Shown one piece after another: positions 50,291-55,838 of a stretch of 58,677 nt of DNA. Numbering within the stretch: position 1 is the stretch's first letter; each line of letters starts with the position of its first letter. The notes under the pieces were generated by a model, which worked only from the letters and a program-made list of their open reading frames with translations, was not told where the DNA came from and did not search any database. Both the position numbers and the translations under genes were made by a program. Source of the DNA: an uncultured Bacillota bacterium (GTDB taxonomy: Bacteria > Bacillota > Clostridia > Caldicoprobacterales > UBA3941); assembly GCA_938003915.1 (NCBI GenBank), contig CALKWV010000050.1, positions 1 to 58,677 on the forward strand, in the 5' to 3' direction.

Positions 50291-51625
50291 CTACACTGGG
50301 TATCCTCCAGTAAAACAGCCTGTGCAAAAGCCGTCATCTCCTCCAATGGCCTTGATAAGCCCCTCCAAGGAAATATAGTATAAAGAATCAGCTCCTAACT
50401 GCTTTCTAATATCTTCAACAGTCATACTTTTGGCCATTAAAAATTCTTCATTGGGAGTATCCATGCCCAGATAACAGGAATGGGTTACTGGAGGCGAACT
50501 TATTCTGACATGGACTTCTTTAGCTCCGGCTTTTTTTAATAATTCTATAATTCTCTTTATTGTAGTTCCTCTTACTATGGAATCATCCACCAACACAACC
50601 CTTTTTCCATTTACGTTATCCTTTAAAACATTTAACTTTATTTTTACCCCTTGCTCTCTTAGCTCCTGAGTTGGCTGAATAAAGGTTCTGCCTACATATC
50701 TATTTTTTATCAAACCATCCCTGTAGGGGATTTTGGATTCTTCCGCATAGCCTACGGCTGATACTATTCCTGAGTCTGGTGCTCCAATTACTATATCTGC
50801 ATCTACAGGGCTTTCTCTGGCCAACTGCCTTCCTATTTCAATTCGTGCTGTATATATACTTCTATTGTCCACCTGACTATCTGGCCTTGCAAAGTATATA
50901 TACTCAAATAGGCAGTGGCTGACCTTGCCTTTCTTTTGACAAACAGTCCTTACTCCATTTTCATCTATGACTATCATTTCTCCAGCATCAATATTTCGAA
51001 TAATGTCTGCTCCAATGGTATCGAAAGCACAGGTTTCAGAGGCTATTATATAGCCATCCTTAATCTTACCTAAGACCATAGGTCTTATGGCATGAGGATC
51101 CCTTGCGGCAATTAGGCTGCTGGCATTCATCATAACTATGCTATAGGAGCCCTTTATATCATCCAAAGCCTTCATAATGGCCTCTTCTAACCTGTCCTTA
51201 TGATATCTTGCTATTAAGTTGGCAATAACCTCTGCATCTAAAGTGCTTTGGAATATTACGCCCTTATCCTCTAATTCATCCCTTAGTGCCTTTGCATTTA
51301 CAATACTTCCATCAAGGCAAAGAGCAAGTGCTCCTTTTCTATAGCCCACAACTAAGGGTTCTACATTGGTTTTATCCTTACTGTCATGGCTTGTAGCATA
51401 CCTAACATGACCTATAGCAATATTTCCTATAAGTCTTTCTATTACATCCTTTGAAAATACTTCATTGACTAATCCCTGCCCCTTATGGTAATCAACAAAG
51501 CCGTTGTTGTTGACTGCTATACCTGTACTGGCTTGGCCTCTATGCTGCAGCGCATATAGACCATAATAGGCAATTTGGGATGCATCCACTCTATTTGGGC
51601 TGTATATTCCAATTATTCCGCTCAA
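50291..51625 (-). CDS. purF: Amidophosphoribosyltransferase with a non-canonical N-terminal nucleophile (Ser instead of Cys)
   Basis: TTG start lies 6 nt after GGAGGG. The PRTase motif VVLVDDSIVRGTT and four Fe-S Cys are present. The N-terminus is M-SGIIGIY instead of M-CG(I/V)xGI. Confidence 0.9.
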   Translation of the reverse strand: MSGIIGIYSPNRVDASQIAYYGLYALQHRGQASTGIAVNNNGFVDYHKGQGLVNEVFSKDVIERLIGNIAIGHVRYATSHDSKDKTNVEPLVVGYRKGALALCLDGSIVNAKALRDELEDKGVIFQSTLDAEVIANLIARYHKDRLEEAIMKALDDIKGSYSIVMMNASSLIAARDPHAIRPMVLGKIKDGYIIASETCAFDTIGADIIRNIDAGEMIVIDENGVRTVCQKKGKVSHCLFEYIYFARPDSQVDNRSIYTARIEIGRQLARESPVDADIVIGAPDSGIVSAVGYAEESKIPYRDGLIKNRYVGRTFIQPTQELREQGVKIKLNVLKDNVNGKRVVLVDDSIVRGTTIKRIIELLKKAGAKEVHVRISSPPVTHSCYLGMDTPNEEFLMAKSMTVEDIRKQLGADSLYYISLEGLIKAIGGDDGFCTGCFTGGYPV

Positions 51626-51636
51626 TATGTTCCCTC

Positions 51637-55100: not shown

Positions 55101-55838
55101 TTGTTCAAAAACTTCCCTTAATTTGCCTTCCTCTATTTCCACATGGGTTATTTCAGTATTAAAGGTTTTGTGCCTACAATGATCAGACCAATAGGTATCT
55201 ATTACCTTTAATTCAGTAACGGTTGGATTTCTGTGAGCATTTTTAAAATATTCCTGACAGAATTGGAGATCCTCTAAATCCATAGCTAGTCCCAAAGATT
55301 TTAACAATTTTTCTAGGCCTTCTTTATCCAAATCTATAAAGCCATCTACAATTTCAACATCATCCGCAATATCCTCTTCTTCTAAAAAGCTTTCTTTATC
55401 AAGGGGAATTTCTCTCGATTCAGTAGGATTGATGTAGTAGGATTTTATTTTTTCAAGATCTGTGTCAGAAATGTTTTTAAGGATTATATACTTAGAATGC
55501 TGGATTTTTACCTTATCATATCCAAGATAGTTATTAACCAATTCATTGGCAGCAGCTTCCCTTTGGTTGTATTGTCCTCCAATATTTTCAACCCTAAAAG
55601 CTTTTTCATCCTTATCAATTGGGGGCATATCTTCGTATAAGTAATCTATGGCTGGTTCATATAGAACCATTTCAATGATATTGTCTATTTCATTTTTCTT
55701 TGCACCATAAATTTCATAAGAGTTTATAACTCTAACTCTTTCAAGGGTCTCTATGCCTAAATAGTCTTTAAATTCAGTGTACAATTCTCTCGCTTCTGAA
55801 TTTACAGCACTCTTTTTTTCGATCAATATTCTTTTCAT
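52131..55838 (-). CDS. purL: Phosphoribosylformylglycinamidine synthase, single-chain clostridial type, with a degenerate glutaminase domain
   Basis: 1235 aa. The synthetase core is conserved (…[26 protein letters not shown]…). The C-terminal domain of about 250 aa aligns to the PurQ-like glutaminase but lacks the Cys/His/Glu triad. Confidence 0.95.
   Translation of the reverse strand: [1235 protein letters not shown]

What the first reader, a model, noticed from the sequence alone, without database searches (positions are those of the whole stretch)
50291..55838. Both glutamine-dependent steps of one pur operon are glutaminase-dead, suggesting an ammonia-dependent de novo purine pathway
PurF (step 1) and PurL (step 4) are the only two glutamine amidotransferases between PRPP and IMP. 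In this single riboswitch-controlled operon, both have independently lost their nucleophile and supporting residues while keeping intact acceptor domains.

Two coincident losses in otherwise well-preserved genes argue for selection, meaning direct use of free NH3, and against random decay. That would fit an ammonia-rich or alkaline niche such as amino-acid or purine fermentation, where NH3 is abundant and unprotonated. I do not know of a described pathway variant of this kind.

The alternative is that this is a second, specialised pur cluster and a canonical purF/purL set exists elsewhere in the genome.
Basis: inference. Interest (0 to 1): 0.8.

Follow-up and report, generated by a model that had tools for sequence, protein, structure and literature searches.

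The report
Glutaminase-dead PurF and PurL pair
In this bacterium and a whole clade of its relatives (mostly Tissierellia), the two purine-synthesis enzymes that normally take nitrogen from glutamine have lost their glutamine-cleaving residues yet stay under strong selection, so purines are probably made from free ammonia.

Summary
PurF (50291-51625, minus strand) starts Met-Ser where every canonical PurF has the Cys1 nucleophile. It also has Asp for oxyanion-hole Asn101, Ala for Asp/Glu29 and Leu for His100. The fused PurL (52131-55838) has Gly, Ala and Asp where T. maritima PurQ has Cys86, His186 and Glu188, and several other glutaminase motifs are rewritten.

This is not private decay. All 120 closest PurF and all 120 closest PurL clusters carry the same changes. 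Each variant set forms one group in trees, and named members are almost all Tissierellia. The operon purL-E-F-M-N-H-D matches the main clostridial pur operon in gene order. Both altered domains are under purifying selection (dN/dS about 0.1). Deeper relatives lose the glutamine site further while keeping the acceptor domains.

Direct use of NH3 at both steps is the best explanation (about 0.6). It is untested, and a canonical second gene set elsewhere in the genome could not be excluded. A relative in the clade, [Clostridium] ultunense, is reported to lack glutamine synthetase. I found no published description. The closest precedents are crenarchaeal PurF', C1S laboratory mutants and ammonia-dependent CPS I.

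The parts
50291..51625 (-). purF, amidophosphoribosyltransferase of the Fe-S type without a propeptide, 444 aa, variant with Ser1/Asp101
   Evidence: TIGR01134 at 497 bits. 467 bits to B. subtilis PurF 1AO0. PRTase motifs, channel motifs and Fe-S cysteines are kept.
50921..51622 (-). PurF N-terminal (Ntn-type) glutaminase domain, aa 2-235. Changed: Ser2 (51620-51622, AGC) for Cys1; Ala32 (51530-51532) for Asp/Glu29; Leu104 (51314-51316) for His100; Asp105 (51311-51313) for Asn101. Kept: Arg26, Gly27, Arg73, Tyr74, Thr76, Gly102, Asp127.
   Evidence: dN/dS is 0.090 against relative L081.
51637..52119 (-). purE (AIR carboxylase / N5-CAIR mutase family)
   Evidence: PF00731 and TIGR01162.
52131..55838 (-). 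purL, single-chain FGAM synthase of the clostridial clade II type, 1235 aa, with an inactive glutaminase domain
   Evidence: TIGR01857 at 1536 bits. 80% of canonical-invariant columns are kept in the synthetase domain.
52134..52889 (-). PurL C-terminal class-I glutaminase-like domain, aa 984-1235. Gly1089 (52572-52574) replaces the catalytic Cys, Ala1206 (52221-52223) the His, Asp1208 (52215-52217) the Glu. Motif changes: FPGTNCEYD to [14 protein letters not shown].GDEP to [17 protein letters not shown] to ATREGRV. There is also a deletion of about 10 residues.
   Evidence: PF13507 at E 4.7e-42. Alignment to T. maritima PurQ Cys86/His186/Glu188. Alignment with canonical clade-II PurL. dN/dS is 0.106.
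55938..56039 (-). Purine riboswitch aptamer directly upstream of purL
   Evidence: RF00167 at 69.2 bits.
55890..55931 (-). Terminator-like hairpin with a T run; probable expression platform of the purL riboswitch
   Evidence: 18-pair stem followed by a T tract.
56033..56719 (-). purC (SAICAR synthetase, short form)
   Evidence: PF01259 at E 8e-42.
56773..56962 (-). Tandem leader of purC: a guanine/purine aptamer (56861-56962) followed by a ykkC-family aptamer (56773-56876), preceded by a promoter-like site at 56968-56995
   Evidence: RF00167 at 77.6 bits and RF00442 at 66.8 bits. Promoter-like site. The architecture matches the guanine-PRPP tandem riboswitches of Firmicutes pur genes (PMC5912903).
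45724..50164 (-). Rest of the operon: purM 49133-50164, purN 48519-49139, purH 46987-48522, purD 45724-46974
   Evidence: ORFs. Orthologues with Pfam assignments lie in the same order in L081 and L082.
44064..45629 (-). Third purine riboswitch (45528-45629) and a xanthine/uracil-family permease (44064-45401)
   Evidence: RF00167 at 67 bits. PF00860.

Best explanation
This is the organism's main de novo purine operon, with purL-E-F-M-N-H-D under a purine riboswitch. Its two amidotransferases have become glutamine-independent.

Shown: PurF keeps its PRPP-binding and phosphoribosyltransferase domain, its Fe-S cluster ligands and the motifs that form the internal ammonia channel. Its N-terminal domain lacks the Cys1 nucleophile (Ser), the oxyanion-hole Asn101 (Asp) and Asp/Glu29. 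PurL keeps its ATP-dependent FGAM-synthetase core. Its C-terminal glutaminase domain lacks the whole Cys-His-Glu triad and several substrate-site motifs.

Inferred: neither enzyme can hydrolyse glutamine. Free NH3/NH4+ enters through the vacant glutamine pocket and the retained channel, and reacts with PRPP (step 1) and with activated FGAR (step 4). The dead domains are kept because they are structural parts of the active enzymes, forming the channel, closing the active site and holding the assembly together.

Inferred benefit: in ammonia-rich, energy-poor, peptide- or amino-acid-fermenting niches this saves the glutamine-synthetase ATP for two nitrogens per purine. It also frees purine synthesis from the glutamine supply.

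The trait is ancient and shared by a clade whose named members are almost all Tissierellia.
For: (1) Catalytic residues are missing at positions that are invariant in 64 canonical PurFs and 10 canonical clade-II PurLs.

(2) The change is clade-wide. 131 of 133 variant PurFs that cover the N-terminus have Ser1, and 135 of 135 have Asp or Glu at 101. 128 of 129 variant PurLs have Gly for the Cys, and all lack the His. Each variant set forms one group with no canonical sequence inside it in NJ trees. In the exhaustive representative search, all acidic-101 PurFs fall in one clade of 12 of 147 representatives, again with no canonical member.

(3) Purifying selection, window against L081: purF glutaminase domain 0.090, purL glutaminase domain 0.106, other pur genes 0.064-0.113.

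(4) The PurL glutaminase domain evolves about 1.5 times faster relative to its synthetase domain than in canonical PurL (ratio 1.2-1.4 against 0.7-0.9). It keeps only 45% of canonical-invariant columns against 80% for the synthetase domain, as expected when catalysis but not structure is lost.

(5) Deeper lineages show further erosion of the glutamine sites inside intact pur operons. P0286/L094 has Gly1, R73S, Y74N and D127H. L095 has no Cys-Gly N-terminus at all. L096 has a shrunken PurL glutaminase domain (1171 aa, 30% identity in that domain against 50% in the synthetase domain).

(6) The gene order matches the main clostridial pur operon.

(7) E. coli PurF C1S and C1A mutants lose glutamine-dependent activity but keep NH3-dependent activity (Mei and Zalkin 1989, as cited in PMC3261824).

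(8) [Clostridium] ultunense, a clade member (L014), lives in high-ammonia digesters and is reported to lack glutamine synthetase and Amt (PMC5924567).
Against: No enzyme activity or labelling data exist. The rest of the genome could not be searched, so a canonical purF or a purQ/purS/purL set elsewhere is not excluded.

In the window's own subclade Ser1 is invariant, always an AGY codon. Arg73, Tyr74 and Asp127, which bind glutamine in canonical PurF, are retained. The PurF N-terminal domain shows no relative rate acceleration. So that domain may still bind a ligand or perform some chemistry.

The link to glutamine-synthetase loss is not general: Clostridium acidurici has the enzyme, although whether it carries the variant genes was not checked.

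From my own recollection, known lgPurL and smPurL enzymes use NH4+ poorly, so efficient NH3 use would need adaptations that I could not identify.
Confidence: 0.6

Rival explanations
1. A canonical, glutamine-dependent purF and purL (or purQ/purS/small purL) set exists elsewhere in these genomes and carries most of the flux. This operon's enzymes are then high-ammonia isozymes or have another specialised role.
For: It cannot be excluded. In Crenarchaeota, Cys-less PurF' proteins do coexist with a canonical PurF (PMC3261824).
Against: The operon carries the full gene set purC, L, E, F, M, N, H, D and matches the main clostridial pur operon in gene order. No second purF or purL lies in the window or within 10 kb of the variant purF in about 20 related loci. 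None of the variant-clade assemblies hit gave a second, canonical locus among the 80 best; this is weak evidence because the scan was truncated. Strong purifying selection on the 1235-aa PurL would be hard to maintain for a redundant copy across such a deep clade.
Confidence: 0.2
2. Variant PurF is still an amidotransferase. Ser1, perhaps assisted by Asp101, acts as the N-terminal nucleophile as in Ser- and Thr-type Ntn hydrolases. It hydrolyses glutamine or another amide donor. Only PurL is ammonia-dependent.
For: Ser1 is invariant in the window's subclade, and Ser1 and Asp101 co-occur in 7 separate 50%-identity representatives, counting the window. Arg73, Tyr74 and Asp127 are retained, and the domain evolves no faster than in canonical PurF. 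Met-Ser allows removal of the initiator Met, which would expose the Ser alpha-amine (established knowledge).
Against: E. coli C1S PurF has no detectable glutamine activity (cited in PMC3261824). A carboxylate in the oxyanion hole should disfavour the tetrahedral intermediate (inference). Sister lineages in the same clade replace residue 1 by Gly or delete it, and lose Arg73, Tyr74 and Asp127, yet keep the gene in an intact operon. Asp/Glu29 becomes hydrophobic and Thr76 is unconstrained. All Ser codons are AGY, so one ancestral TGY-to-AGY change explains them.
Confidence: 0.12
3. The genes are decaying remnants. The organisms are purine auxotrophs that live on salvage through the riboswitch-controlled permease.
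For: A purine permease lies next to the operon. Many peptide-fermenting Bacillota need complex media; for example, yeast extract is required by syntrophic acetate oxidisers.
Against: dN/dS is 0.05-0.11 for every gene and domain. Reading frames are intact in more than 250 related protein clusters. Acceptor-domain catalytic motifs are strictly conserved. Riboswitch regulation is intact.
Confidence: 0.03

Closest known systems
Canonical glutamine PRPP amidotransferase (PurF; B. subtilis 1AO0, E. coli 1ECF) and its Cys1 laboratory mutants
   Same: Same family and fold, with 467 bits to 1AO0. The PRTase domain, Fe-S ligands and channel motifs are conserved. C1S and C1A mutants of E. coli PurF keep NH3-dependent activity only (cited in PMC3261824), which is the behaviour proposed here.
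   Different: Here the natural enzyme has Ser1, Asp101 and a hydrophobic residue at position 29, fixed across a clade. It is not a laboratory mutant.
Crenarchaeal PurF' and Methanocorpusculum Mlab_0150 (Brown et al. 2011, PMC3261824)
   Same: These are natural PurF homologues without the N-terminal Cys (Ala, Val or Ser), encoded near pur genes. The authors proposed them to be ammonia-dependent.
   Different: They sit beside a canonical PurF in the same genome, and PurQ/PurL there keep the catalytic Cys and Glu. Here the variant occupies the purF slot of the main operon, no second copy is seen nearby, and PurL is disabled as well. Any phylogenetic relationship was not tested.
Clostridial single-chain FGAM synthase (TIGR01857) and the PurL/PurQ/PurS complex (T. 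maritima 3D54)
   Same: Same architecture and synthetase core. From my own recollection (Hoskins et al. 2004), small PurL alone can use NH4+ in vitro.
   Different: The triad Cys86/His186/Glu188 is replaced by Gly, Ala and Asp, and other glutaminase motifs are rewritten.
Carbamoyl-phosphate synthetase I of ureotelic vertebrates
   Same: It works the same way. An amidotransferase keeps a glutaminase-like domain whose catalytic Cys is replaced by Ser, and it uses free ammonia (established knowledge, not tested here).
   Different: It is an unrelated enzyme and pathway, is eukaryotic, and is activated by N-acetylglutamate.
Herpesvirus vGAT / FGARAT-like pseudoenzymes (PMC7605207)
   Same: These are PurL homologues that have lost the glutaminase catalytic residues.
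   Different: They have lost purine-biosynthetic function altogether and act on host signalling. Here the synthetase core and the operon context are intact.

Membership tests
PurF, amidophosphoribosyltransferase (TIGR01134; EC 2.4.2.14, glutamine-hydrolysing) | Full-length match to the equivalog model above its trusted cutoff | tested here: met
   497.1 bits against a cutoff of 350, residues 3-443.
PurF, amidophosphoribosyltransferase (TIGR01134; EC 2.4.2.14, glutamine-hydrolysing) | N-terminal Cys nucleophile (Cys1 after Met or propeptide removal) | tested here: not met
   Codon 2 is AGC (Ser), and a stop lies 5 codons upstream of the TTG start. Cys is present in 64 of 64 canonical sequences.
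PurF, amidophosphoribosyltransferase (TIGR01134; EC 2.4.2.14, glutamine-hydrolysing) | Oxyanion hole Asn101-Gly102 and Asp/Glu29 | tested here: not met
   Asn101 is Asp (GAT, 51311-51313) and Asp/Glu29 is Ala. Gly102 is kept.
PurF, amidophosphoribosyltransferase (TIGR01134; EC 2.4.2.14, glutamine-hydrolysing) | PRPP-binding/PRTase motifs, channel-forming motifs and 4Fe-4S cysteines | tested here: met
   VDDSIVRGTT, RYVGRTFIQP, FEYIYFARPDS and four Cys are conserved in the window and in at least 95% of the variant clade.
PurF, amidophosphoribosyltransferase (TIGR01134; EC 2.4.2.14, glutamine-hydrolysing) | Glutamine-dependent PRA synthesis | not testable with these tools
   This needs an enzyme assay.
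Single-chain FGAM synthase, clade II (TIGR01857; EC 6.3.5.3) | Full-length match above the trusted cutoff; N-terminal, linker, synthetase and GATase_5 domains present | tested here: met
   1535.8 bits against a cutoff of 1057. PF18072, PF02769 and PF13507 are present.
Single-chain FGAM synthase, clade II (TIGR01857; EC 6.3.5.3) | Glutaminase catalytic triad Cys-His-Glu | tested here: not met
   Gly1089, Ala1206 and Asp1208 align with Cys86, His186 and Glu188 of T. maritima PurQ and with GICNGFQ and GHSER of 10 canonical clade-II PurLs.
Single-chain FGAM synthase, clade II (TIGR01857; EC 6.3.5.3) | Conserved FGAM-synthetase (ATP/FGAR) core | tested here: met
   197 of 245 canonical-invariant columns are kept in at least 90% of the variant clade. 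dN/dS is 0.067. Motifs DHCRH, ETHNHPT, DFGAGG and ESQERM are visible in the translation.
Crenarchaeal PurF' (Brown et al. 2011) | PurF homologue lacking the N-terminal Cys, encoded near pur genes | tested here: met
Crenarchaeal PurF' (Brown et al. 2011) | Coexists with a canonical Cys1 PurF in the same genome, usually nearby | tested here: inconclusive
   No second purF lies in the 58.7-kb window or within 10 kb in related loci.
Tandem guanine-PRPP riboswitch (ykkC subtype 2b; Sherlock et al. 2018) | Guanine aptamer directly upstream of a ykkC-family aptamer, in front of a de novo purine gene in a Firmicute | tested here: met
   RF00167 at 56861-56962 abuts RF00442 at 56773-56876, upstream of purC. 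The architecture is described in PMC5912903.
Tandem guanine-PRPP riboswitch (ykkC subtype 2b; Sherlock et al. 2018) | Subtype-2b ligand-site nucleotides that distinguish PRPP from guanidine or ppGpp binders | not tested
   Only the Guanidine-I model matched (66.8 bits against a gathering score of 63). Subtype-specific positions were not examined.

The most novel reading that the evidence does not exclude
A whole bacterial lineage, mostly Tissierellia, makes purines without glutamine. Natural PurF and single-chain PurL enzymes have been converted into dedicated ammonia-utilising enzymes. The conserved Ser1/Asp101 pair of PurF and the remodelled pocket of PurL serve as ammonium-recruitment sites feeding the old channels. 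The trait is tied to life at high ammonia and to a reduced or absent glutamine-synthetase system.
Probability: 0.45. Interest if true: 0.8.

Novelty: new variant of a known kind. Interest (0 to 1): 0.7.

Why it matters
Textbooks treat steps 1 and 4 of de novo purine synthesis as obligately glutamine-dependent in Bacteria. A natural, clade-wide pair of ammonia-dependent enzymes would change that in several ways.

- It would alter metabolic reconstruction and nitrogen and ATP budgets for abundant anaerobic-digester and gut Bacillota, which are currently annotated as EC 2.4.2.14 and EC 6.3.5.3.
- It would give a natural experiment on how amidotransferase channels are re-purposed once the glutaminase half is switched off.
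- It would provide an ecological marker for adaptation to high ammonia, relevant to syntrophic acetate oxidisers in biogas plants.
- It would supply ready-made NH3-dependent enzymes for biochemistry and engineering.

It is directly testable by ordinary expression, assay and complementation.

Tried and rejected
- Sequencing error or a mis-called start: rejected. A stop lies 5 codons upstream, the ribosome-binding site is present, and the identical protein occurs on 40 contigs.
- Private decay in this genome: rejected by clade-wide conservation and dN/dS.
- A second, specialised cluster: made unlikely by shared gene order with the main clostridial operon, but not excluded.
- Looking for other glutamine amidotransferases to compare (guaA, carA, pyrG): none lies in the window or in the flanks of related loci.
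- Ser codon switching (AGY against TCN) as a sign of selection for Ser: only AGY was found, so this is uninformative.
- Supplement of the C. ultunense genome paper searched for purF, purL and purQ: nothing found.
- Literature searches for a prior description: only the archaeal PurF' paper and the viral pseudo-GAT review turned up. One search failed on time-out.
- The genome-contig scan did not find the window's own genome; the best hit was 68% identical.
- Structure prediction was not run. The tool returns confidence and secondary structure only, which would not show whether the pocket or channel is open.
- The third word-index protein search was left unused, because a list of the top 120 hits cannot prove that a second gene copy is absent.
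Full report
**What is in the window**

On the minus strand lies a complete de novo purine gene set (Pfam and NCBIfam):
- a promoter-like site (56968-56995)
- a purine aptamer (56861-56962) abutting a ykkC-family aptamer (56773-56876)
- purC (56033-56719)
- a second purine aptamer (55938-56039) with a terminator-like hairpin (55890-55931)
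- purL (52131-55838), purE (51637-52119), purF (50291-51625), purM, purN, purH, purD (45724-50164)
- a third purine aptamer (45528-45629) and a xanthine/uracil-family permease (44064-45401)

- PurF passes the equivalog model TIGR01134 (497 bits, cutoff 350) and scores 467 bits against B. subtilis PurF 1AO0.
- The DNA reads GGAGGGAACATAT-TTG-AGC-GGA. A stop lies five codons upstream in frame, so the protein begins Met-Ser-Gly and no upstream Cys is possible.
- In the 1AO0 alignment the Ser takes the place of Cys1, and Asp105 takes the place of the oxyanion-hole Asn.
- Among 64 canonical PurFs recovered from other genomes, Cys1 and Asn101 are invariant, Glu/Asp29 is invariant and His100 is 97% conserved. 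The window has Ser, Asp, Ala and Leu.
- Arg26, Gly27, Arg73, Tyr74, Thr76, Gly102 and Asp127, the four Fe-S cysteines, the PRTase motif VDDSIVRGTT, and the motifs FEYIYFARPDS and RYVGRTFIQP are kept.

- PurL passes TIGR01857 (1536 bits, cutoff 1057).
- Its C-terminal domain is still recognisably GATase_5 (E 4.7e-42).
- Aligned to T. maritima PurQ (3D54_D), Gly1089, Ala1206 and Asp1208 sit on Cys86, His186 and Glu188.
- Against ten canonical clade-II PurLs, FPGTNCEYD has become [14 protein letters not shown].GDEP has become [17 protein letters not shown] has become GIGSGLN, SHGEGRF has become ATREGRV and GHSER has become SAIDR. About ten residues are deleted.

**It is a lineage trait, not decay**

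- All 120 closest PurF clusters (65-100% identity) begin MSG and have (H/L)DG in place of HNG.
- All 120 closest PurL clusters (57-99% identity) have Gly for the Cys and an S-x-(I/S)-D-R-type motif for HxER.
- Named members are Tissierella, Schnuerera, Gudongella, Tissierellaceae and Tissierellia MAGs, Ezakiella and [Clostridium] ultunense. Wansuia hejianensis is also among them, although NCBI files it in Lachnospiraceae.
- In the combined sets, 131 of 133 variant PurFs have Ser1 and 135 of 135 have Asp or Glu at 101. 128 of 129 variant PurLs have Gly at the Cys position.
- NJ trees, built without the diagnostic columns for PurF, place each variant set as one group with no canonical sequence inside.
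- An exhaustive search of 1.84 billion representatives puts every acidic-101 PurF into one clade of 12 of the 147 nearest representatives, again with no canonical member. Those with names are Tissierellia or Bacillota MAGs.
- The exact window protein is seen on 40 contigs from many sequencing runs.

**Selection**

Against a relative with 89-94% amino-acid identity (L081), dN/dS values are:
- purL 0.088 overall: N-terminal domain 0.10, synthetase domain 0.067, glutaminase domain 0.106
- purF 0.052 overall: glutaminase domain 0.090, PRTase domain 0.021
- the other pur genes 0.064-0.113

So both disabled domains are under purifying selection.

At the protein level, the PurL glutaminase domain evolves 1.2-1.4 times as fast as the synthetase domain inside the variant clade, against 0.7-0.9 times in canonical PurL. 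It retains only 45% of canonical-invariant columns, against 80% for the synthetase domain. That is the pattern expected when catalysis is lost but the fold is still needed. The PurF N-terminal domain shows no such acceleration.

**The operon is the main one**

In the related loci the order purL-E-F-M-N-H-D, often followed by fhs, recurs. It matches the canonical clostridial purL-E-C-F-M-N-D operon of Cellulosilyticaceae and other Clostridia, where PurF and PurL are canonical. This argues against a second, specialised cluster.

**Evidence that the glutamine sites are truly dispensable**

Deeper members of the same PurF clade go further while staying in intact pur operons:
- P0286/L094 starts Met-Gly directly after a stop codon and has R73S, Y74N and D127H.
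- L095's PurF starts MFGIC and lacks the Cys-Gly N-terminus altogether. It has R73H, Y74S and N101D, yet its operon's PurL is canonical.
- L096 has a Ser1/Asp101 PurF with a PurL whose glutaminase domain is shrunken (1171 aa) and only 30% identical to the window's, against 50% in the synthetase domain.
- Conversely, the ultunense/Schnuerera group keeps Cys1 but has Asp101 and Y74S, together with a dead PurL.

So the two losses are separate events, and Asn101-to-Asp is the common denominator in PurF.

**Mechanism**

- Shown: the residues needed for glutamine hydrolysis are absent, while the acceptor domains and channel motifs are conserved and selected.
- From the literature: E. coli PurF C1S and C1A mutants lose glutamine-dependent activity but keep NH3-dependent activity (Mei and Zalkin 1989, as cited in PMC3261824).
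- Inferred: both enzymes use free NH3, which enters through the vacant pocket and the old channel. The domains persist for structural and channel reasons. The benefit is independence from glutamine and a saving of the glutamine-synthetase ATP.
- Speculation: the conserved Asp101, with Ser1, could help recruit NH4+.
- Ecological support is indirect. [Clostridium] ultunense, a clade member, thrives in high-ammonia digesters and is reported to lack glutamine synthetase and an ammonium transporter (PMC5924567). Clostridium acidurici does have the enzyme (PMC3519856).

**What remains open**

- I could not search the rest of any clade genome, so a canonical purF or purQ/purS/purL elsewhere is not excluded.
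- The strict conservation of Ser1, always an AGY codon, and of Arg73, Tyr74 and Asp127 in the window's subclade leaves room for a residual ligand-binding or catalytic role.
- Fixed clade-specific substitutions in the PurL synthetase domain (for example N568D, T456V and V420L) are unexplained.

**Comparison with what is known**

- Crenarchaeal PurF' proteins and Mlab_0150 lack Cys1 and were proposed to be ammonia-dependent, but they sit beside a canonical PurF, and PurQ there is intact.
- Herpesvirus vGATs are dead PurL homologues with no biosynthetic role.
- From my own knowledge, vertebrate CPS I is the best functional analogue: its glutaminase-like domain has Cys replaced by Ser and the enzyme uses free ammonia.
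- Five literature searches found no description of a bacterial operon with both steps disabled.

**Verdict**

This is a new variant of a known kind, with interest 0.7.

Noticed in passing
window 56773-56962 (-): A purine/guanine aptamer directly abuts a ykkC-family aptamer (scored as Guanidine-I, 66.8 bits, just above the gathering score of 63) upstream of purC. The context fits the known tandem guanine-PRPP 'IMPLY gate' riboswitch of Firmicutes (PMC5912903) better than a guanidine sensor.
   Followed up: partly
window 45528-45629, 55938-56039, 56861-56962 (-): Three purine riboswitch aptamers lie within 11.5 kb, controlling purC, purL-purD and a purine permease separately. The pur genes are therefore not one simple riboswitch-controlled transcript.
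   Followed up: partly
L095 10001-11359 and 15846-19559: In a related metagenomic operon (purE-purB-purF-M-N-H-D-purL), PurF starts MFGIC and lacks the Cys-Gly N-terminus entirely. It has Asp101, His73 and Ser74, while PurL is fully canonical (GICNGFQ, GHSER). The PurF loss can therefore occur alone.
   Followed up: partly
L012 and L014 ([Clostridium] ultunense DSM 10521), purF at about 10001: These PurFs keep Cys1 but have Asp101 and Ser74 beside a dead PurL. In the NJ tree they are nested among Ser1 sequences, which could mean a Ser-to-Cys reversal or repeated Cys-to-Ser changes.
   Followed up: partly
L096 5994-9509: This PurL is only 1171 aa. Its glutaminase-like domain is strongly degenerate (30% identity to the window against 50% in the synthetase domain), which suggests the domain is eroding in some lineages.
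   Followed up: partly
L057 (Tissierella sp. P1) 9986-11572: The purF reading frame appears interrupted: a 342-aa ORF is followed by a gap of about 560 bases before purM. This is either a frameshift or an assembly error.
   Followed up: no
P0064/P0067; L082: Wansuia hejianensis and Lachnospiraceae bacterium NSJ-29, filed by NCBI in Lachnospiraceae, carry the same variant PurF. A contig carrying a near-identical PurF (L082) holds the whole variant operon (permease-purC-L-E-F-M-N-H-D-fhs). This points to horizontal transfer or a taxonomic misplacement.
   Followed up: partly
window 57227-57706 and 57690-58592 (+): Two overlapping ORFs each match the MatE (MATE efflux) family and look like one transporter gene split by a frameshift.
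   Followed up: partly
window 41407-41584 (+), 41693-43967 (+), 40210-41085 (-): A lysine riboswitch lies upstream of asd and a dapB gene that carries a C-terminal ACT domain. A divergent dapA-family gene sits on the other side.
   Followed up: partly
window 531-626 (+), 10352-10526 (-), 24560-24792 (-): A THF riboswitch overlaps the listed start of an ECF-transporter S component, so the true start is probably further downstream. A 6S RNA lies next to tRNA genes, and a T-box leader lies upstream of a class I (valyl-type) tRNA synthetase gene (21628-24285).
   Followed up: no
purL synthetase domain, e.g. aa 420, 456, 486, 568: Several substitutions are fixed in the variant clade at positions invariant in canonical clade-II PurL: V420L, T456V, Q486 to hydrophobic, and N568D. 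They could be adaptations of the channel or the NH3 site, but they were not mapped on a structure.
   Followed up: no
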